Positions 1 through 7,320 of a stretch of 7,998 nucleotides of DNA are shown here, piece by piece. The notes beneath the pieces were generated by a model. That model saw nothing but the letters and a program-made list of their open reading frames with translations, was not told the DNA's origin and searched no databases. The translations under genes were made by a program, and so were the position numbers. Each line of letters starts with the position of its first letter. Positions within the stretch are counted from its first letter, which is position 1. The DNA lies in contig JAEOSI010000094.1 of the NCBI GenBank assembly GCA_016840425.1, positions 1 to 7,998 of the forward strand, written 5' to 3'. The stretch is from Candidatus Wukongarchaeum yapensis. Lineage in GTDB: Archaea > Asgardarchaeota > Wukongarchaeia > Wukongarchaeales > Wukongarchaeaceae.

Positions 1-1771
1 TTTTTATTTCTGCGTATTGATATTTCTCAAAGTTTTTTTCAAGTTCTGGCTTATTGGGTTTAAAAATAGCTAGAGCTTCCTTGTTTTCCTTTAAAGTGAA
101 ATAGGCCGTCTTTCTAACTCGGCGGTTTTGATCCTTTAAAAGGTCAAAGAAGATTCTTAATATCTCTTTTCTGTATTGTGGGTCTATTCTTATGATCTCT
201 CGAAGCGTGGAGACACTAGCAGCCCTGACGGACCAGTCAACATCCTCTGTAAATCTAAGAGCTATGCTTAAGACTTCTTTTATGAAGCTAGAATCTGCTT
301 TAGTGACCTCAAGTAACGCTAAAACGCTTGCAGATCTTACTAAAGCGTTTTCATCTTCTGATAAAGAAACAAAAATGGGTAAGAACATTTTTGCAACTTT
401 CGGCTTACACCTAACTGCTTCGCTTAAAGCTTTTGTCGCCGCTCTTCGCGTAAAAATATTTGGATCTTTTGACAAAGAAATTAAGATGCTGGAGATCTCT
501 TCAAATTTTGTTCCTGATTTAAGGAGCTCACAGAGGGCGGAAATAGCGTTTTTCTGAACCTTTGGATCGAGATCATCTGATAGATTTATTATGGTTGACA
601 AAACTTCTCCCGCCAAAGAAGAATCTGCTTGTAAAACACTCTGCAAAGCTTTAGCACCTATAGCCCTAACTTCAGCCATTTTATCCTTAGAACTCTCGAT
701 AACTAGAGGTAAAATTTCCTCTATCAAGGTGGGATCTACTTTTATTGCCTTCCCCAAAACATTTAGGGCCACTGCTCTTAGGGCAGATCTCTCATCTTTC
801 ACAAGCTCGATCAAGAAAGGTAACACAGATTTCGCAAAGTCGGGGTCAAATATTCCGGCATCTAAAGTGTTCTCCACGATATCGATAAAGGTTTGTCCCC
901 CCTCCTTTCTCACAGAGGTATCAGAATCCTTAATAAGAGCCTTAATCGTCTCAAAAACCTCTTTTTTCCCTGCAAGAGGATTAAACGTAATAGCAAGCTT
1001 TAAGGCTTGAGCGCTAGCGATTCTCACCGAACTATCATCATGTTTCGCTAGTTGAATAATGAGAGGCAACGAAGCCGCAGCAGCACTAGGATTCAACCTT
1101 AAATTGTTAATGAGAGTGCAAAGGGCAAAAACCCACTTTTCAGGCTCCCATCCCCCTTCAACTATAGAAGCAACTACGGAGGGTAAACTCTCCTCAAGAA
1201 CTCCCGGAATAGACTCGCCCAACTCTATAAATATACGAACAGAAATATTCCGCATATACTCCGCCCCTTCCCCCATATGCTTTATTAAAACTGGTAATAT
1301 TTCCTTTGCAACAAGGGGGTTACTTGTAGAAATATCACCTAACGTGCGAATAGCCCCAGAACAAATATACAAATCATAACTATCAGCCAACTCCTTTAAA
1401 AGAGGTAAAGCTTCCAAAGCAACTTCTGGATCTATTGTCGCCACCGATTCAAAAAGCAGATAAATTGCCCTATTCTGCACGTCCTGAACATCATCCCTTG
1501 CCAAATCTATAATGGAAGAAAAAACAGCTTCAGCTGATTTAGAATCAATGGCAACAATCTCCTCCAACGCAAAAAGTATAGCACGCCTTACCCCCTCCTT
1601 CTCATCCCTTACAAGCTCAAAAACTATAGAAAAAAGATCTTCACCCACAAGATCAGGACGAGAAACCACTAACTCCTTAATACTATTAGCAGTGTCTCTC
1701 CTTTGAAACCAATCATCAGCCTTAGCCATCACTCTAATTTTCTCAAACCGCTGTTTCTGTTCACCAGTCAT
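1..1771 (-). CDS. HEAT-repeat (alpha-solenoid) protein, about 15 repeats of ~37 aa, 3'-partial (>=590 aa, no stop before window edge)
   Basis: Manual translation of the minus strand from ATG at 1771 is open to position 2: MTGEQKQRFEKIRVMAKADDWFQRRDTANSIKELV...ILRIFFDLLKDQNRRVRKTAYFTLKENKEALAIFKPNKPELEKNFEKYQYAEIK. Recurrent HEAT consensus (V/I)LPxIxxLxxDxxxxVRxxAxxxLxxIxxxDP, e.g. VLPFLIELVKDERSALRAVALNVLGKAIKVDP and FLPIFVSLSEDENALVRSASVLALLEVTKADS. An in-frame TAG at 1787-1789 bounds the start. Absent from the ORF track because it has no stop in the window. Confidence 0.92.
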   Translation of the reverse strand, partial: MTGEQKQRFEKIRVMAKADDWFQRRDTANSIKELVVSRPDLVGEDLFSIVFELVRDEKEGVRRAILFALEEIVAIDSKSAEAVFSSIIDLARDDVQDVQNRAIYLLFESVATIDPEVALEALPLLKELADSYDLYICSGAIRTLGDISTSNPLVAKEILPVLIKHMGEGAEYMRNISVRIFIELGESIPGVLEESLPSVVASIVEGGWEPEKWVFALCTLINNLRLNPSAAAASLPLIIQLAKHDDSSVRIASAQALKLAITFNPLAGKKEVFETIKALIKDSDTSVRKEGGQTFIDIVENTLDAGIFDPDFAKSVLPFLIELVKDERSALRAVALNVLGKAIKVDPTLIEEILPLVIESSKDKMAEVRAIGAKALQSVLQADSSLAGEVLSTIINLSDDLDPKVQKNAISALCELLKSGTKFEEISSILISLSKDPNIFTRRAATKALSEAVRCKPKVAKMFLPIFVSLSEDENALVRSASVLALLEVTKADSSFIKEVLSIALRFTEDVDWSVRAASVSTLREIIRIDPQYRKEILRIFFDLLKDQNRRVRKTAYFTLKENKEALAIFKPNKPELEKNFEKYQYAEIK

Positions 1772-1779
1772 ACACAAAA

Positions 1780-2233: not shown

Positions 2234-2617
2234 CTAAGTTCCTAAAGAGATACCCGTAGCTAGAGCCGTACCTGCCCAAGCGAGTACAAAGGCTAGAATT
2301 ATTAATCCTGTGAGGATTAATAGACCCGTTCTTACGGTTTCGCTTTCAATCAATCGAGGGTTTAGTGCTAGGAATAGAGCTAGAAGCGCGATTACGAGGC
2401 CTCCTATTATGTAGAATATGCTACCAACGAAACGTAATATTACGCCCATTTCTCTCTGATCGTAGTAGTCTTGCCCAAGCCCGGGGTTAGAGTAGGGAGC
2501 GGCATCATACATGGTTGTACCTAGATGGGAAAATAAACCACCGATTAAGAGCAAAATAAAGCCTATAACAAAACCTATTTTGTATGAGGTAGGAAGTTTT
2601 CTTTCTTTTTCGCCCAA
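2234..2617 (-). CDS. Hypothetical membrane protein, 3 predicted TM helices (~127 aa)
   Basis: ORF 2234-2638 in the track; the start is more likely TTG at 2617 because AGGAGGT lies 6 nt upstream. Hydrophobic segments: IGFVIGFILLLIGGLFSHLG, VILRFVGSIFYIIGGLVIALLALFLAL and GLLILTGLIILAFVLAWAG. Confidence 0.8.
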   Translation of the reverse strand: MGEKERKLPTSYKIGFVIGFILLLIGGLFSHLGTTMYDAAPYSNPGLGQDYYDQREMGVILRFVGSIFYIIGGLVIALLALFLALNPRLIESETVRTGLLILTGLIILAFVLAWAGTALATGISLGT

Positions 2618-2623
2618 AGTATT

Positions 2624-2630
2624 ACCTCCT
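2624..2630 (-). promoter_or_regulatory. Shine-Dalgarno AGGAGGT
   Basis: Strong SD match 6 nt before TTG at 2617. Confidence 0.7.
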
Positions 2631-2647
2631 TTATTCATCTTTTTATA

Positions 2648-2870: not shown

Positions 2871-3902
2871 TCAAACTATCTGTAACCATGTTCCAATCTT
2901 GTTTCTTCTTGCCTTTTGGTATATTACCCAGCCGGTTGAAACGTCTTGGATGGCTAGACCTGTGCTATCAAATATTGTTATTTCATCATCATTCTCTCTG
3001 CCCAGCTTTTTGCCCACTATAATATCGCCAAGCTCCGCATAAATCGCGTTTTCCTTAATTATTCCCTTTAAGAGAGGAACATTTACTTCGCCACTGTGGA
3101 TCGCTTGTTCCCAATCATCAATCACTATTTTTGCCCGTTTCAATAATGTTGATTCCAGTTCTTGTTTCCCCGGAGCATCGGCCCCTATCGCGTTAATGTG
3201 GGTTCCCTTGCCAATCCACTCGTCTTTCACTACTGGCGATCTAGCAGGAGTTACTGTCGCTAAAACATCAACCTTTTCCACCGCTTTTCGCGGCTCATCC
3301 ACTACAACTATCTCCACTTCAAGCTTTTTCTCCATCTTTTCTTTGAAAGATTCCGCAGCAGCTTTCACTATATCATAAACGAAACATTTTCTAAGATGCA
3401 TCGCGTGAAAAGCAGCTTCAAGCTGAGTTCTCGCCTGTATACCTGCTCCGACGAGCCCCATAATTTCGCTGTTCTTACGCGCTAAATATTTTATAGCGAT
3501 ACCGCCTGATGCCCCTGTTCTAAGAGCGGTTAAATGCGTACCATTCATTATGCTATAAATAAGCCCGTTCCTTGGGTCCATCATGAGTACGACAGCCATC
3601 ACAGAGGGAAGCTTGAAAAGTTCGCGGTTTTTCGGGTGAACATTAACAATTTTAACACCAGCCATATCAGTCTCTTCCAAATAAGCAGGCATAACACGAA
3701 AGTCTCCATCATATTTATCAAAAAAAACATAGTTCTTTGCAGGCATCTGAACACTCCCCTTCCCCTTCTGCGCGAATGCCCACTCAACAGCCTCCATCAC
3801 CTCCCACATCTCAACACAGCTTTCAGTCTGCTCCTTCGTCAAAAAAAGTACCTTATCAAGAGGAATTAAGAGTTCCCGAACCACTTCCTTTTTTTCAACC
3901 AT
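2871..3902 (-). CDS. ala: Alanine dehydrogenase, archaeal ornithine cyclodeaminase/mu-crystallin family
   Basis: 343 aa with motifs matching Archaeoglobus-type AlaDH throughout: QMPAK, DFRVMPA, GVKIVNVHP, TALRTGASGG, Rossmann GLVGAGIQA, GTHINAIGADAPGKQEL, DDWEQAIHSGEVN, ITIFDSTGLAIQD. Substrate specificity within the OCD/CRYM family is inferred from similarity. Confidence 0.88.
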   Translation of the reverse strand: MVEKKEVVRELLIPLDKVLFLTKEQTESCVEMWEVMEAVEWAFAQKGKGSVQMPAKNYVFFDKYDGDFRVMPAYLEETDMAGVKIVNVHPKNRELFKLPSVMAVVLMMDPRNGLIYSIMNGTHLTALRTGASGGIAIKYLARKNSEIMGLVGAGIQARTQLEAAFHAMHLRKCFVYDIVKAAAESFKEKMEKKLEVEIVVVDEPRKAVEKVDVLATVTPARSPVVKDEWIGKGTHINAIGADAPGKQELESTLLKRAKIVIDDWEQAIHSGEVNVPLLKGIIKENAIYAELGDIIVGKKLGRENDDEITIFDSTGLAIQDVSTGWVIYQKARRNKIGTWLQIV

Positions 3903-4100: not shown

Positions 4101-4592
4101 TCAGCGGTTTTCCAGCTTATCGAGTTTTTCTGCCGCTTTTTTGATTTGGGATAAGGCTCTTCTTCTCTTAGCATTATTATGGATCAATCGATCATATTTT
4201 GAGAAGTCTTCCTTTGTCATGTCTAATTTTTTGCAAACCTGTTCTATGAACTCTTTTTTAGAAGAAGATACTGGTGTCTCCAAAATGACTTTTGAGACGT
4301 CCATCAAAGAAGGACCTATTTTTCTTGAATGAGTTGGTTTTCCAAGGGTTTTTTGGACGATATCTTCGAGTTCCGGTGTTTTAACCAGAGCAGATACTAC
4401 GATTACTTCTTCTTTAGATTCTGTGAACATTGAACTCACATGGATCGTTAGTGTCCTATCTTTGTTTTTGATCATCATTCCTCCTTCGTCATCAATTCGG
4501 GAAGACAGTCCTAATTTACTTTCTAACTTTTCTAAACGGTCCTTAACTTTTTCATAAGAAGGAAAACGATACTCAAGTTCTTTAGCCAACAT
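4101..4592 (-). CDS. Hypothetical soluble protein (~163 aa)
   Basis: ORF 4101-4649 in the track. AGGTGA at 4600-4595 places the real start at ATG 4592 or TTG 4589 (MLAKELEYRFPSYEK...). Charged, K/E-rich composition typical of a real globular protein; no family recognised. Confidence 0.78.
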   Translation of the reverse strand: MLAKELEYRFPSYEKVKDRLEKLESKLGLSSRIDDEGGMMIKNKDRTLTIHVSSMFTESKEEVIVVSALVKTPELEDIVQKTLGKPTHSRKIGPSLMDVSKVILETPVSSSKKEFIEQVCKKLDMTKEDFSKYDRLIHNNAKRRRALSQIKKAAEKLDKLENR

Positions 4593-4594
4593 AT

Positions 4595-4600
4595 TCACCT
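4595..4600 (-). promoter_or_regulatory. Shine-Dalgarno AGGTGA
   Basis: Archaeal-type SD 5 nt before TTG 4589 (2 nt before ATG 4592). Confidence 0.55.
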
Positions 4601-4633
4601 GCCTCAACATCGAAACGATAAGTAAAAAAACAT

Positions 4634-4651
4634 TTTTGCCAATGGGCAAAA
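4634..4651. promoter_or_regulatory. Perfect inverted repeat TTTTGCC-N4-GGCAAAA in the divergent spacer; candidate operator
   Basis: TTTTGCC 4634-4640, spacer AATG, GGCAAAA 4645-4651, between the divergently oriented hypothetical and PLD genes. Confidence 0.45.
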
Positions 4652-4743: not shown

Positions 4744-4809
4744 TTGAAGAAAAAAATCTTACTCCTAGTCCTATTAACTTTACTACTTATCCCAGCAACT
4801 GTAATGGCA
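4744..4809 (+). other. Sec-type signal peptide of the PLD protein
   Basis: MKKK basic n-region, ILLLVLLTLLLI h-region, P-A-T-V-M-A c-region; likely cleavage after VMA (about aa 22, judged by eye). Confidence 0.75.
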
Positions 4810-6087
4810 AATACCGAAGAAAAAACTAGCCGATCTAACGACGCTCCATCTATCCAAATAGGCGCTGAATTAGAGCCGAGAACTGACACCACCTTCCCAG
4901 CAGGTGACTTTACAGGGGGTATGAACGTTACAGCATATTCATCACCTGATTCTTCCTTCGATGTCACACTTTCTTACTTACGCTCTGCTAAAAACTCGAT
5001 AGATATCGAAATCTACGCCATAAGTAACGGCTTCCTCCTCCACGAGTTAAACCAAGCTTACCAAAGAAATAACAACATCAAGATAAAAGTCGTAGCTTCT
5101 TGGATATCCTCCGGCTTTGAAAAGTCCGATACAAGGGCAGCACTCTATAACATATCACAGATTCCCCTCGACTATGAAAGCCAAACCAACATACAGTTAT
5201 ACTGGACTGATGACAGCCCCTACGAACGTACCCACGCAAAATTCATAATCATCGACGAAGAAGTCGTACTTATTCAGAGCGCTAACTGGGCAAAAACAGG
5301 CATACCACCAAGCCCTACTACAGGCAATAGAGAATGGGGAGTCGCTGTAAAAAACCAAAACGTAGTAGATTACTACCTTGAAATTTTTGGATACGATTTA
5401 ATTAATTCAAAACTATATACACCAAATCCTGACGATTTTAAAGATTTTTCCGCCAGCATATCTACAGGATCCTATACACATCCTTTCTCGGAAGAAACTT
5501 TCATCGGGACTATGAGGATTAGAACCATAGTTACACCTGATAACGCTATACCAACCATAATAGAACTTCTTGAATCAGCAAGCGACACACTAGACGTTCA
5601 ACAAATGTATATTAGAATAGATTGGCATGAGGGATATGAGGACCTTTTCATGGAAGAACTCGTGGACGCAGCTCAAAGAGGAGTAGATGTTAGGGTGATT
5701 TTGGACCAAAAGTATAACAAGGAGGAAAACCTCGAAACTGCAAATTATCTTGACTCTTTCGGTATCGAGGTCAAGTTTGGCGATACTACTAAACTAGATG
5801 CCATTCACAACAAAGGAGTGATCGTGGACGAAAAAGCCGTCCTAGTCTCAAGCATAAACTGGTCCAACGAGTCGGTCACAGAAAACAGGGAAACAGGAAT
5901 AATAATCTACGATTCTGATGTCGCTAATTACTTCACTAATATTTTTGAGTGGGATTGGGCAGCAGGAGAAATACCCGAAGGGCTCCCTGAGTTCACTGGC
6001 CTGCAAATTATGTTCCCTCTAATAGCCCTAACAATAGCACTATTAACCACAATAAAACTGAGAAAAAAACAGGTTAAAACGGGTTAA
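4744..6087 (+). CDS. Secreted, C-terminally anchored phospholipase D-superfamily protein (two HKD motifs)
   Basis: 447 aa. HAKFIIID followed by QSANW (HKD1, 5233-5256); HNKGVIVD followed by SSINW and ENRETG (HKD2, 5806-5829). N-terminal signal peptide and C-terminal PEF + TM + basic tail. Confidence 0.9.
   Translation: MKKKILLLVLLTLLLIPATVMANTEEKTSRSNDAPSIQIGAELEPRTDTTFPAGDFTGGMNVTAYSSPDSSFDVTLSYLRSAKNSIDIEIYAISNGFLLHELNQAYQRNNNIKIKVVASWISSGFEKSDTRAALYNISQIPLDYESQTNIQLYWTDDSPYERTHAKFIIIDEEVVLIQSANWAKTGIPPSPTTGNREWGVAVKNQNVVDYYLEIFGYDLINSKLYTPNPDDFKDFSASISTGSYTHPFSEETFIGTMRIRTIVTPDNAIPTIIELLESASDTLDVQQMYIRIDWHEGYEDLFMEELVDAAQRGVDVRVILDQKYNKEENLETANYLDSFGIEVKFGDTTKLDAIHNKGVIVDEKAVLVSSINWSNESVTENRETGIIIYDSDVANYFTNIFEWDWAAGEIPEGLPEFTGLQIMFPLIALTIALLTTIKLRKKQVKTG
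5986..6087 (+). other. PEF-CTERM-like sorting/anchoring signal
   Basis: PEF (5986-5994), then the hydrophobic helix TGLQIMFPLIALTIALLTTI and the basic cluster KLRKKQVKTG-stop; the tripartite layout of archaeosortase-type signals. Confidence 0.7.
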
Positions 6088-6237: not shown

Positions 6238-7320
6238 TTGAGCGTTGAAGAGATGTTGTTAGAATACGGAGAACTTATAGAGAAAGAGACTATAAAATTT
6301 TTGAAAGATAACATCGCCGAAGCGGAAAAATATCATCCTTTCATTAAGGAGACTTTTGAGCTTCTTAAGGATTACATCTTTAGACCGGGGAAAAGGTTAG
6401 CCTCAATAAGCACCTTGTTAATCTATAAAGGATATAAGGGGAAGGTCGATGATCAGATTTTGAAGGTTTGTGCCGGTATTGAAATTTATCGCCATTCCAT
6501 TTTGATCCATGATGATCTAGTTGATTTGGACGGTATGCGGAGAGGAGAACTATCGATTCATAAACTGTTTGAGAACTTAATGGAAGAGAGGTGTGTTAGA
6601 GGTTTGGACGCTGGTAGAGGATTTCCGAGTTTTGGAGAAAGTATGGCAGTTTTTACGGGGAACATACTACTTTCTCTTGCTTTTAAGTCAATCAATAAAG
6701 CAGGGTTCGATAGAGATCTTACCACGAGAGTTATTGGTGCCATCAATAAAGATTTTCAATTTGTAAATGAGAGCCAAATTTTAGACCTTTTATTCGAGTT
6801 TTCACCTCCGAATAAAAATGAGTGGGAAATAATGGCTTCCAAACGTGCTTCACAGCTTTTCAAAACCACATTGACTATAGGGGCAATCCTTGCCGAGGTA
6901 CCGGAAGAAGAGCTGAAAATGGTTGAAGAGTGTGGATCTCACATAGGGTTTGCTTTCGATATCATAGACGACATCATAGGGGCGTTCACTACAGAAGAAG
7001 TTTACGGCAGACCTTCTACTGGTGATATAATTCTTGGGAAAAAGCCTCTTCATGTAACCATAGCTTTGGAAAAAGCAACACCAAATAAAAAACAAAAACT
7101 TTTAGAAATTCTAAAAAACAAAACTAAAACGGATGAAGAGATCCTAGAAGCAAAAGATATTATGCGTGAATACGGGCTAACGGAAGCAAAAAAAGCAGCT
7201 AGAAATCATGCAACAGAGGCTATAAAAATCCTAGAGAAACTAAAAATTGACGAAAAAACAAAACAATCACTCAAACAATTCATAGAATATGTAGCCGAAA
7301 ATCTTAACTGGTATACCTAG
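6238..7320 (+). CDS. Trans-polyprenyl diphosphate synthase family protein (GGPPS/IdsA fold), divergent active site
   Basis: 360 aa with GKR (aa 51-53), FARM IHDDLVD plus RRG (aa 90-103), GNILL, xQxLD (ESQILD), SARM region GFAFDIIDDIIG and D-x3-GKK. Several otherwise conserved residues are substituted (see findings), so no gene symbol is assigned. Confidence 0.9.
   Translation: MSVEEMLLEYGELIEKETIKFLKDNIAEAEKYHPFIKETFELLKDYIFRPGKRLASISTLLIYKGYKGKVDDQILKVCAGIEIYRHSILIHDDLVDLDGMRRGELSIHKLFENLMEERCVRGLDAGRGFPSFGESMAVFTGNILLSLAFKSINKAGFDRDLTTRVIGAINKDFQFVNESQILDLLFEFSPPNKNEWEIMASKRASQLFKTTLTIGAILAEVPEEELKMVEECGSHIGFAFDIIDDIIGAFTTEEVYGRPSTGDIILGKKPLHVTIALEKATPNKKQKLLEILKNKTKTDEEILEAKDIMREYGLTEAKKAARNHATEAIKILEKLKIDEKTKQSLKQFIEYVAENLNWYT

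What the first reader, a model, noticed from the sequence alone, without database searches (positions are those of the whole stretch)
6238..7320. Prenyl diphosphate synthase homologue with intact metal motif but a rebuilt IPP site and carbocation pocket: possible new chemistry
Seen versus the trans-IDS consensus: (1) GKRxRP is GKRLAS (aa 51-56), losing the IPP-binding Arg; (2) ExxH is EIYR (R85), with His replaced by Arg; (3) position -5 before the FARM is Ser87 rather than the Phe of archaeal GGPPS; (4) GQxxD is SQILD (aa 179-183); (5) the KT motif aligns to R203-A204; (6) FQxxDD is FDIIDD (D241); (7) the post-SARM GK..D..EGKxT is GRPSTGDIILGKKP; (8) the C-terminus ends AENLNWYT with no basic tail. 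FARM DDLVD (92-96) and RRG (101-103) are intact. Established: the -5 residue sets chain length (Phe77 in Sulfolobus GGPPS; small residues allow longer products); Lys200/Thr201/Gln240 of human FPPS line the allylic carbocation pocket; the RxR Arg, the ExxH His and the basic C-terminus help bind IPP. Inference: the enzyme probably still ionises an allylic diphosphate but may use a non-IPP acceptor, make >=C25 chains, or act as an IDS-fold terpene synthase/cyclase or irregular-coupling enzyme. The His-to-Arg change might partly compensate for the lost Arg. Alignments were done by eye.
Basis: partly seen in the sequence, partly recalled or inferred. Interest (0 to 1): 0.72.

Follow-up and report, generated by a model that had tools for sequence, protein, structure and literature searches.

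The report
Conserved archaeal prenyl synthase variant
This gene belongs to a conserved, uncharacterised archaeal branch of the prenyl-chain-building enzymes in which several normally invariant active-site residues are replaced, always in the same way. It most likely still elongates isoprenoid chains, and a sister branch has lost the second-substrate site altogether.

Summary

These substitutions are not decay:
- They are invariant in about 129 homologues from at least eight archaeal lineages.
- dN/dS against the nearest orthologue is 0.13.
- The protein is always a third PF00348 paralogue, beside canonical ones, in 8 of 8 genomes checked.

The "new chemistry" reading is only partly supported:
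- Positions matching human-FPPS IPP contacts are mostly kept. The two tail contacts (L89, F240) and two basic diphosphate contacts (K52, R102) are invariant.
- The lost Arg (A55) is matched by an invariant new Arg (R85).
- Most family members end in W-Y-K/R.

A sister group shares the rebuilt carbocation pocket (S179, R203-A204, D241, P270). It has lost all IPP-diphosphate basic residues and sits beside B12-type radical-SAM genes. This shows what real loss of IPP binding looks like in this clade.

Best reading (about 0.55): a working trans-IDS with a relocated IPP-binding arginine and an Arg/Asp pocket, whose product and role are unknown. No characterised member, solved structure, curated equivalog or conserved gene neighbourhood was found. 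I class it as a new variant of a known kind, of moderate interest.

The parts
6238..7320 (+). Gene for a 360-aa trans-isoprenyl diphosphate synthase homologue of 'family A'. It has a TTG start, and the stop codon is included.
   Evidence: ORF. PF00348 scores 134 bits against a cut-off of 27. It falls below every NCBIfam equivalog cut-off, the best being 148 against 468. The AF2 model has pLDDT 91.4 and TM 0.79-0.88 to GGPPS/FPPS structures.
6388..6405 (+). G51-K-R-L-A55-S56, which replaces the canonical GKRxRP. The Lys is kept, the second Arg is replaced by Ala, and Pro by Ser.
   Evidence: A55 is found in 127/129 family members, against R in 119/119 canonical sequences. K52 is found in 125/129.
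6481..6525 (+). E82-I-Y84-R85-H86-S87-I88-L89-I-H-D92-D93-L-V-D96. This is the ExxH-type motif with Arg in place of His/Gln, followed by an intact FARM.
   Evidence: R85 128/129, Y84 93%, I88 99%, L89 128/129, and D92/D93/D96 invariant.
6538..6546 (+). The R101-R102-G103 motif, intact.
   Evidence: R101 and R102 are each found in 129/129 family members.
6595..6624 (+). A 10-residue loop insert (V120-F129) found only in this sequence and its two closest relatives.
   Evidence: Alignment. The pLDDT block for residues 121-130 averages 51.
6772..6786 (+). S179-Q-I-L-D183, which replaces the canonical GQxxD.
   Evidence: S179 is found in 129/129 family members, against G in 114/119 canonical sequences. 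It is shared with group B.
6844..6849 (+). R203-A204, which replaces the canonical K-T. This corresponds to hFPPS K200/T201, the allylic diphosphate and carbocation site.
   Evidence: 129/129 in the family, against K 119/119 and T/S 119/119 in canonical sequences. It is shared with group B in 7/7. Residue roles come from PMC7815940.
6955..6981 (+). F240-D241-I-I-D244-D245-I-I-G248. Asp stands in place of the Gln of FQ, followed by a SARM whose third position is Gly.
   Evidence: D241 is found in 129/129 family members, against Q in 119/119 canonical sequences. F240 is found in 128/129. G248 occurs in 25/120 family members and D in 95/120.
7006..7047 (+). G257-R258-P-S-T-G-D263-I-I-L-G-K268-K269-P270, the post-SARM loop. 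Lys is replaced by Arg and Thr by Pro.
   Evidence: R258 128/129, K268 and K269 120/120, P270 98%.
7300..7317 (+). The C-terminal tail N-L-N-W358-Y359-T360. The family consensus is S-L-D-W-Y-K.
   Evidence: The tail reads WYK in 102 and WYR in 11 of 129 members, and WYT only in the Hodarchaeota trio. Canonical sequences have R at -3 in 110/119.

Best explanation
The gene encodes a catalytically competent member of a conserved, uncharacterised archaeal subfamily of trans-isoprenyl diphosphate synthases, here called family A. The organism is probably a Hodarchaeales (Asgard) archaeon from anoxic sediment.

Shown:
- The protein has the IDS fold, with both Asp-rich motifs and the basic residues that hold the allylic diphosphate.
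- It is under purifying selection.
- It is always an extra paralogue beside more canonical IDSs.

Inferred mechanism:
- It binds an allylic diphosphate through three Mg2+ ions on D92/D93/D96 and D244/D245, together with R101, R203 and R258, and ionises it.
- It still binds IPP in the homoallylic site. The isopentenyl tail lies against L89 and F240. The diphosphate is held by K52, R102 and the family-specific R85, which takes over the charge of the lost GKRxR arginine (A55). In most members a W-Y-K/R tail replaces the canonical C-terminal Arg.
- In the cation pocket the usual Lys-Thr/Gln trio is replaced by Arg203-Ala204/Asp241, plausibly an Arg-Asp pair.

The product and its cellular use are unknown. 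It is probably not the housekeeping lipid GGPP synthase. In Methanothrix it is probably not the methanophenazine-type GFPP synthase either, because better candidates for both roles are present in the same genomes.
For: Fold and core:
- PF00348 scores 134 bits.
- The AF2 model has pLDDT 91.4.
- The best structural matches are all chain-elongating IDSs, at TM 0.79-0.88.

Conservation:
- 120 homologues at 43-89% identity carry the invariant signature.
- There are about 12 full-length 50%-identity clusters, and the signature is absent from 119 canonical representatives.
- 179 GTDB species genomes gave confirmed matches. The organism titles of the 80 shown name Bathyarchaeia, Hadarchaeota, Hydrothermarchaeota, Brockarchaeota, Altiarchaeales, Methanothrix, Methanocellales, Methanomassiliicoccales and Hodarchaeota.
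- dN/dS is 0.13 against the 90%-identical orthologue.

IPP site:
- By motif register, K57/R113/L100/F239 correspond to K52/R102/L89/F240. All are at least 97% conserved in the family.
- R60 corresponds to A55 and Q96/His to R85, and the two always occur together.

Contrast with group B:
- Group B shares S179, W196, A200, R203, A204, D241 and P270 but has lost K52, R85, R102 and R258.
- It forms a 100% SH-aLRT clade with family A.
- So in family A these basic residues are being actively retained.

Paralogue status:
- Exactly three PF00348 genes were found in 8 of 8 family-A genomes examined.
- These include IdsA-like enzymes in the seven genomes other than the window's own, and GFPS_Meth-like enzymes in Methanothrix.

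Weak hint of expression: two contigs of at least 99% likeness inside the gene in one metatranscriptome library. DNA carry-over in that library is not excluded.
Against: - No member has been assayed.
- Three residues that are invariant in all 119 canonical representatives are replaced: the R of GKRxR, the K of KT and the Q of FQ. So is the Thr of KT (T/S in all 119). Two of these four line the carbocation pocket.
- Under the IPP-binding-motif rule set proposed for insect enzymes (PMC10108439), changes at R74, Q110, T215 and Q254 would count as warning signs for loss of condensation.
- The residue mapping to hFPPS rests on motif register, not on a structural superposition.
- The nearest sister group has evidently left IPP chemistry, so this pocket type may predispose to other reactions.
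- This particular sequence lacks the basic C-terminal residue of the family.
Confidence: 0.55

Rival explanations
1. New chemistry on the IDS fold. The enzyme ionises an allylic diphosphate, but the Arg203-Ala204/Asp241 pocket and the altered homoallylic site divert the cation. It might go to a non-IPP acceptor, for example a modified C5/C6 diphosphate or a monophosphate. It might undergo irregular coupling. Or it might be lost by elimination or quenching, as in IDS-like terpene synthases.
For: - Three positions invariant in 119/119 canonical representatives are replaced (the R of GKRxR, the K of KT, the Q of FQ), plus the Thr of KT (T/S in all 119). The Thr and Gln line the carbocation pocket.
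- An acidic residue (D241) now sits where Gln stabilises the cation.
- The protein scores far below every functional equivalog model.
- It is always a supernumerary paralogue.
- Its sister group B has the same pocket, no IPP-diphosphate site, and lies in radical-SAM clusters. This shows that the scaffold does support non-canonical roles.
- Substitutions at equivalent IPP-binding positions accompany terpene-synthase activity in insect IDS-like enzymes.
Against: - The two residues that hold the isopentenyl tail of IPP (L89, F240) and three basic residues around its diphosphate (K52, R85, R102) are invariant in family A. They are lost or changed in group B. This argues that a diphosphate-bearing C5-like acceptor is still bound.
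- There is no terpene-tailoring or acceptor-supplying neighbour in 81 loci.
- The structural neighbours are all elongating IDSs.
Confidence: 0.27
2. A non-catalytic or regulatory subunit that forms a heteromer with one of the two other IDS paralogues and tunes its chain length, in the way small subunits of heteromeric GPP, hexaprenyl or heptaprenyl synthases do.
For: - It always co-occurs with two other PF00348 genes.
- One paralogue in this genome (contig C72) itself has odd motifs, RWG and G-I in place of G-Q.
Against: - From established knowledge, known regulatory subunits have lost the Asp-rich motifs. Here FARM, SARM and all allylic-diphosphate ligands are invariant.
- The gene is never adjacent to another IDS gene in 81 loci.
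- No binding test was run.
Confidence: 0.07
3. A decaying gene or an assembly or sequencing artefact of an ordinary GGPP synthase.
For: Only the low PF00348 and NCBIfam scores relative to canonical paralogues.
Against: - The frame is open and the model is confident.
- The signature is invariant across about 129 sequences from many phyla.
- dN/dS is 0.13.
- Near-identical copies occur in metagenomes of 12 studies.
Confidence: 0.01

Closest known systems
Archaeal short-chain trans-IDS / type-I GGPP synthases (IdsA). Examples are Pyrococcus horikoshii 1WY0, M. jannaschii Q58270 and S. acidocaldarius P39464.
   Same: - Same all-helical fold (TM 0.79-0.83 by query).
- FARM, SARM, RRG, the K of GKR, the Leu and Phe that hold the IPP tail, and the GKK loop lysines are all present.
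- Similar length.
   Different: - Only 24-28% identity.
- Scores 148 and 145 bits against equivalog cut-offs of 468 and 500.
- The R of GKRxR, the K-T pair, the Q of FQ, the G of GQ, the T of GKxT and the C-terminal Arg are all replaced, in a fixed way.
- No aromatic residue at -5.
IDS-like terpene synthases of insects and fungi (PMC10108439, PMC7484799)
   Same: - They derive from trans-IDS by duplication.
- They keep the Asp-rich motifs.
- They carry substitutions in the IPP-binding motifs.
   Different: - In those enzymes the basic IPP-diphosphate residues are ablated or replaced by aromatic or acidic residues.
- Family A keeps K52 and R102 and gains R85.
- The pattern of ablation is seen instead in sister group B.
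- Activity was not tested here.
Geranylfarnesyl diphosphate synthases of archaea (Methanosarcina type NF040627; Aeropyrum/Natronomonas type NF040789)
   Same: - They are additional archaeal IDS paralogues that make a chain other than C20 for a special purpose.
- They have a small residue at the chain-length position.
   Different: - P0001 scores 35 and 68 bits against cut-offs of 600 and 560.
- Methanothrix genomes with family A also hold a separate GFPS_Meth-like gene.
Group B, named here: uncharacterised PF00348 proteins such as the one from Nitrosopumilus sp. b2, an Aminicenantes MAG and a Thorarchaeota MAG
   Same: - They share the derived pocket S179, W196, A200, R203, A204, D241 and P270.
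- They form a 100%-supported clade with family A.
   Different: - They have lost K52, R85, R102, R258 and the WYK tail.
- They lie next to two or three radical-SAM genes, some with weak or faint B12-binding-domain hits.
- Family A has no such neighbours.

Membership tests
trans-isoprenyl diphosphate synthase superfamily (Pfam PF00348) | Profile score above the curated cut-off | tested here: met
   134.2 bits against a cut-off of 27, covering profile positions 7-250 of 251.
trans-isoprenyl diphosphate synthase superfamily (Pfam PF00348) | All-alpha IDS fold | tested here: met
   AF2 pLDDT 91.4 and pTM 0.89. Foldseek probability 1.00 and TM 0.79-0.88 to 1wy0, 3qqv and 8f8k.
trans-isoprenyl diphosphate synthase superfamily (Pfam PF00348) | Two Asp-rich motifs (FARM DDxxD, SARM DDxxD/N/G) | tested here: met
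   D92-D93-x-x-D96 and D244-D245-x-x-G248. The third SARM position is Gly in the canonical paralogues of the same genome too.
IPP-condensing (chain-elongating) IDS | Basic residues contacting the IPP diphosphate (hFPPS K57, R60, R113; Q96/His H-bond; C-terminal Arg/Lys) | tested here: inconclusive
   K52 and R102 are kept. R60 corresponds to A55, Q96/His to R85, and the canonical C-terminal Arg to a W-Y-K/R tail (T in this sequence). The net charge is roughly kept but in different positions. The geometry could not be measured.
IPP-condensing (chain-elongating) IDS | Residues holding the isopentenyl tail of IPP (hFPPS L100, F239) | tested here: met
   L89 128/129 and F240 128/129.
IPP-condensing (chain-elongating) IDS | Carbocation pocket Lys-Thr ... 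Phe-Gln (hFPPS K200, T201, Q240) | tested here: not met
   R203-A204 and D241 are invariant in the family. Canonical sequences have K 119/119, T/S 119/119 and Q 119/119.
IPP-condensing (chain-elongating) IDS | Incorporation of IPP into an allylic primer | not testable with these tools
   This needs an enzyme assay.
Archaeal GGPP synthase / IdsA (NCBIfam NF041003, NF040698) | Equivalog score above the cut-off | tested here: not met
   144.7 against 500 and 148.5 against 468. Canonical paralogues of other family-A genomes score 297-394 on NF040698.
Archaeal GGPP synthase / IdsA (NCBIfam NF041003, NF040698) | Bulky aromatic residue at position -5 from the FARM, which stops the chain at C20 (established knowledge, Sulfolobus F77) | tested here: not met
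   S87 here, and S/C/A/G across the family.
IDS-like terpene synthase | Ablation of the IPP-diphosphate-binding basic residues (rule set of PMC10108439) | tested here: not met
   K52, R85, R101, R102 and R258 are conserved in family A. They are ablated only in group B.
IDS-like terpene synthase | Release of a terpene hydrocarbon or alcohol from a prenyl diphosphate | not testable with these tools
   This needs a GC-MS assay.
Regulatory small subunit of a heteromeric IDS | Loss of the Asp-rich motifs, and a partner gene adjacent | tested here: not met
   Both motifs are invariant. No IDS neighbour was found in 81 loci.

The most novel reading that the evidence does not exclude
Family A, including this gene, makes a so far unknown archaeal isoprenoid. 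The invariant Arg203-Ala204/Asp241 pocket and the relocated arginine change what the allylic cation reacts with or how the reaction ends: a non-IPP or modified acceptor, irregular coupling, or an altered deprotonation. Together with sister group B, which has lost the IPP site and is coupled to B12-type radical-SAM enzymes, it would mark an independent prokaryotic route by which the IDS fold left ordinary chain elongation.
Probability: 0.25. Interest if true: 0.8.

Novelty: new variant of a known kind. Interest (0 to 1): 0.55.

Why it matters
Trans-IDSs set the chain lengths of all archaeal lipids, quinone tails and carriers. Their catalytic residues are among the most conserved in isoprenoid biochemistry.

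This clade is kept under selection in many uncultured anaerobic archaea and in cultivable methanogen groups (Methanothrix, Methanocellales, Methanomassiliicoccales). It replaces the GKRxR arginine, the K-T pair and the F-Q glutamine in one fixed way. That outcome is informative whichever way it resolves:
- If the enzyme still elongates with IPP, these "essential" residues can be replaced by a relocated Arg and an Arg-Asp pair. That matters for rules that predict IDS versus terpene-synthase function from motifs.
- If it does not, the enzyme points to an unknown archaeal isoprenoid.

The pair of family A and group B also offers a natural before-and-after series for loss of IPP binding. Annotation pipelines currently label all of these proteins "polyprenyl synthetase family protein" or "GGPP synthase". 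For this clade the second label is unsupported.

Tried and rejected
1. Gene neighbourhood as a clue to function. I called ORFs and clustered them over 81 loci and examined three long contigs. Only lineage-level synteny appeared (IleRS and histidine genes in Bathyarchaeia; CysRS here). No neighbour is conserved across phyla.

2. TrpB2 (TrpB-like PLP enzyme) lies near the gene in 8 loci of Altiarchaeales, Hadarchaeota, Hydrothermarchaeum and one Bathyarchaeon. It is directly adjacent in one locus and one gene away in another, and kilobases away or on the other strand elsewhere. I treated this as chance or residual synteny.

3. Co-distribution with the genome's MenA-like UbiA prenyltransferase. 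MenA-like genes were found in 77 of 151 Asgard genomes sampled. They were not found in the other family-A-bearing genus (0 of 3), so there is no link.

4. A methyltransferase lies downstream of one family-A gene (L007) and of one group-B gene (L095). The two share only the generic SAM-binding region, at 23% identity over 100 aa.

5. Literal use of the published IPP-binding-motif regular expressions (PMC10108439). They also fail on most canonical archaeal controls, so I used only the key residue positions.

6. The archaeal terpene synthases reported in bioRxiv 2024.01.29.577750 have no Pfam domain, so they are not this family.

7. Six literature searches found no description of this subfamily or of the group-B radical-SAM cluster.

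8. Squalene/phytoene synthase (PF00494) was not found in the 92%-complete genome.

9. The earlier scan note on this window, about strand asymmetry of spacers, does not bear on the gene.

10. The RNA-library contigs cover only parts of the gene, and none cover the upstream PLD-like gene. Absence of cover is not evidence of anything.

11. No complex prediction was run, because I make no binding claim.
Full report
**What is in the window**

The window holds seven plausible genes:
- a HEAT-repeat protein (2-1777, minus strand);
- a small membrane-like ORF (2234-2638, minus strand);
- an archaeal-type alanine dehydrogenase (2871-3902, minus strand);
- an unassigned 182-aa ORF (4101-4649, minus strand);
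- a two-HKD phospholipase-D-superfamily protein (4744-6087, plus strand);
- the gene in question (6238-7320, plus strand);
- the start of cysteinyl-tRNA synthetase (7472 onwards, plus strand).

The nearest relatives of the gene and its flanks are labelled Candidatus Hodarchaeota. The window's assembly is a 2.16-Mb, 92%-complete MAG. The same DNA recurs nearly unchanged in marine-sediment, marsh and mangrove metagenomes of 12 studies.

**Check of the observation**

The ORF translates to 360 residues with a TTG start. The two closest orthologues begin with Met at the same position and have no Met at residue 6, so the TTG start stands.

Each aligns to the canonical motif as claimed. This holds in HMMER alignments to solved GGPP and FPP synthases and in a MAFFT alignment with the other IDS genes of this and two other genomes.

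Four details need correction:
- The third Asp of the SARM is Gly in this protein.
- There is a 10-residue loop insert (V120-F129), private to this sequence and its two close relatives and modelled at low confidence.
- The absence of a basic tail is private to the same trio. The family as a whole ends W-Y-K or W-Y-R.

**Is it decay or a clade?**

It is a clade.
- A word-indexed search returned 120 homologues at 43-89% identity.
- An exhaustive HMMER search of 50%-identity representatives returned about a dozen full-length family clusters before the score steps down.
- A pattern scan of one genome per GTDB species confirmed 179 loci.
- Across 129 family sequences the odd residues are essentially invariant: A55, R85, S179, R203, A204, D241, R258, P270 and the W-Y tail. 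In 119 canonical representatives, R, K and Q at positions 55, 203 and 241 are each 119 of 119.
- Against the 90%-identical orthologue, dN/dS is 0.13.
- Two short contigs of one metatranscriptome library match the gene at 99% or better. This is only a weak hint of transcription.

**Is it the only IDS?**

No.
- The genome has three PF00348 genes. The other two carry the canonical GGKRLRP, ExxH, KT, FQ and GKKT motifs, although one has RWG and G-I.
- The same count of three was found in all seven other family-A genomes examined. These were two complete or near-complete Bathyarchaeia-type genomes, two Methanothrix, one Methanocellaceae, one Methanomassiliicoccales and one Hydrothermarchaeum.
- In those seven genomes one paralogue is clearly IdsA-like, at 297-394 bits on NF040698. 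In Methanothrix a second paralogue is nearest to the Methanosarcina geranylfarnesyl diphosphate synthase model.
- Family A is therefore a supernumerary enzyme. It is not the obvious lipid GGPP synthase, and not the obvious methanophenazine-tail synthase either.

**Distribution**

- Among 151 sampled Asgard genomes, only four, from two genera, have a true family-A gene (above 520 bits). The remaining hits at 205-255 bits are the canonical type.
- Among 251 sampled genomes of the phylum containing Bathyarchaeum, 22 have it.
- The family is thus widespread across archaeal phyla but patchy within them.

**What the substitutions mean**

Two reviews of human FPPS structures assign roles:
- K57, R60 and R113 form salt bridges to the IPP diphosphate.
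- Q96 hydrogen-bonds to the IPP diphosphate.
- R351 of the C-terminal tail acts through water.
- L100 and F239 hold the isopentenyl tail.
- R112, K200 and K257 bind the allylic diphosphate.
- The K200 carbonyl, T201 and Q240 stabilise the allylic cation.

A third paper formalises the same positions as IPP-binding motifs. It shows that insect IDS-like terpene synthases have ablated them.

By motif register the equivalents here are as follows. The offset is a constant -11 across E93, Q96, L100, D103, R112 and R113, and a constant +1 across F239, Q240, D243 and K257.

| hFPPS residue | This protein |
|---|---|
| K57 | K52 |
| R60 | A55 |
| Q96 | R85 |
| L100 | L89 |
| R112 | R101 |
| R113 | R102 |
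| K200 | R203 |
| T201 | A204 |
| F239 | F240 |
| Q240 | D241 |
| K257 | R258 |

Three points follow:
- The IPP tail contacts and two of the three IPP salt-bridge residues are invariant in the family.
- The third salt-bridge residue is lost, but an invariant Arg appears at the neighbouring His/Gln position.
- All three allylic-diphosphate ligands are kept as basic residues.

What is truly different is the cation pocket (Thr to Ala, Gln to Asp) and the C-terminal closure. This mapping is an inference from alignment. I had no access to model coordinates to measure distances.

**The sister group**

Among the first non-family hits of the exhaustive search are seven proteins that I call group B. 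They share S179, W196, A200, R203, A204, D241 and P270 with family A. In them K52, R85, R102 and R258 are replaced by small, hydrophobic or aromatic residues, and the W-Y-K tail is absent.

- In a maximum-likelihood tree, A plus B form a clade with 100% SH-aLRT support. B is monophyletic (99%) and placed inside A. This was a quick search, so the nesting is provisional.
- Named members come from Nitrosopumilus sp. b2, an Aminicenantes MAG and a Thorarchaeota MAG.
- In all four contexts I could read, the group-B gene lies beside two or three radical-SAM genes of about 460, 520 and 600 residues. In three of the four, some of these show weak or faint B12-binding-domain hits.

Group B matters here for two reasons:
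- The rebuilt cation pocket arose before the split, and it is compatible with an enzyme that no longer binds IPP.
- When IPP binding is given up in this clade, the basic residues disappear quickly. Their invariance in family A therefore argues that family A still binds a diphosphate in the homoallylic site.

**Context**

No neighbour is conserved beyond lineage-level synteny. The recurrent TrpB2 neighbour, a MenA-like prenyltransferase and a downstream methyltransferase were followed and dropped. The own genome shows no squalene/phytoene synthase, one cis-prenyltransferase and three UbiA-family genes.

**Comparison with what is known**

- The fold and closest structures are ordinary elongating IDSs at 20-28% identity.
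- No solved structure, Swiss-Prot entry or NCBIfam equivalog covers the family.
- Sources name it only "polyprenyl synthetase family protein" or, by transfer, "GGPP synthase".
- Six literature searches found no description of it.
- The recently reported archaeal terpene synthases are unrelated proteins without a Pfam domain.

**Verdict**

- Most likely (0.55): a working trans-IDS with a relocated IPP-binding arginine and an Arg/Asp cation pocket, serving an unknown third isoprenoid need.
- Less likely (0.27): an enzyme whose altered pocket gives other chemistry.
- Unlikely: a regulatory-subunit role (0.07).
- Excluded: decay or artefact (0.01).

It is a new variant of a known kind. It is of moderate interest in itself and of higher interest when paired with group B.

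Noticed in passing
L094:7001-8047, L095:5496-6584, L096:3570-4643 (and a JGI contig without DNA): Group B proteins are PF00348 proteins that share the window protein's S179/R203-A204/D241/P270 pocket but lack all IPP-diphosphate basic residues. Each lies next to two or three radical-SAM genes of about 460, 520 and 600 aa, some with weak or faint B12-binding-domain hits (none in L094). This holds in Nitrosopumilus sp. b2, an Aminicenantes MAG and two metagenome contigs. It looks like an undescribed isoprenoid-modifying gene cluster.
   Followed up: partly
window:4101-6087: A two-HKD phospholipase-D-superfamily gene (447 aa) and an unassigned 182-aa ORF fill the gap between alanine dehydrogenase and the IDS gene. 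The best NCBIfam match of the PLD-like gene is DISARM DrmC, at 76 bits and below the cut-off. In the otherwise syntenic locus of the closest relative (L014) this segment holds different genes, so it is a variable island.
   Followed up: partly
G000:C72:3599-4675 (L002:1339-2439, minus strand): One of the two more canonical IDS paralogues of the same genome has RWG instead of RRG and G-I instead of G-Q. These are departures at positions that are otherwise well conserved.
   Followed up: no
L016:2565-7035; L015:3803-7041: In an Altiarchaeales MAG the family-A gene follows trpB-trpA-trpB2 on the same strand, with an 8-bp gap after trpB2. TrpB2 is also within a few kilobases in Hadarchaeota, Hydrothermarchaeum and one Bathyarchaeon (8 of 81 loci).
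   Followed up: partly
window:6595-6624: A 10-residue insert (V120-F129) sits in the already long loop after the FARM. It is present only in this sequence and its two closest relatives and is modelled with low confidence.
   Followed up: partly
window:2-1777 (minus strand): A long HEAT-repeat protein (at least 592 aa, running off the window) with many eukaryote-type HEAT/ARM family hits. It is conserved in synteny in the closest Hodarchaeota relative.
   Followed up: no
G000:C12:1582-2556: The genome encodes a MenA-like 1,4-dihydroxy-2-naphthoate polyprenyltransferase homologue (153 bits, below the cut-off). Similar genes were found in 77 of 151 sampled Asgard genomes, which suggests a widespread prenylated quinone-like product in this phylum.
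   Followed up: partly
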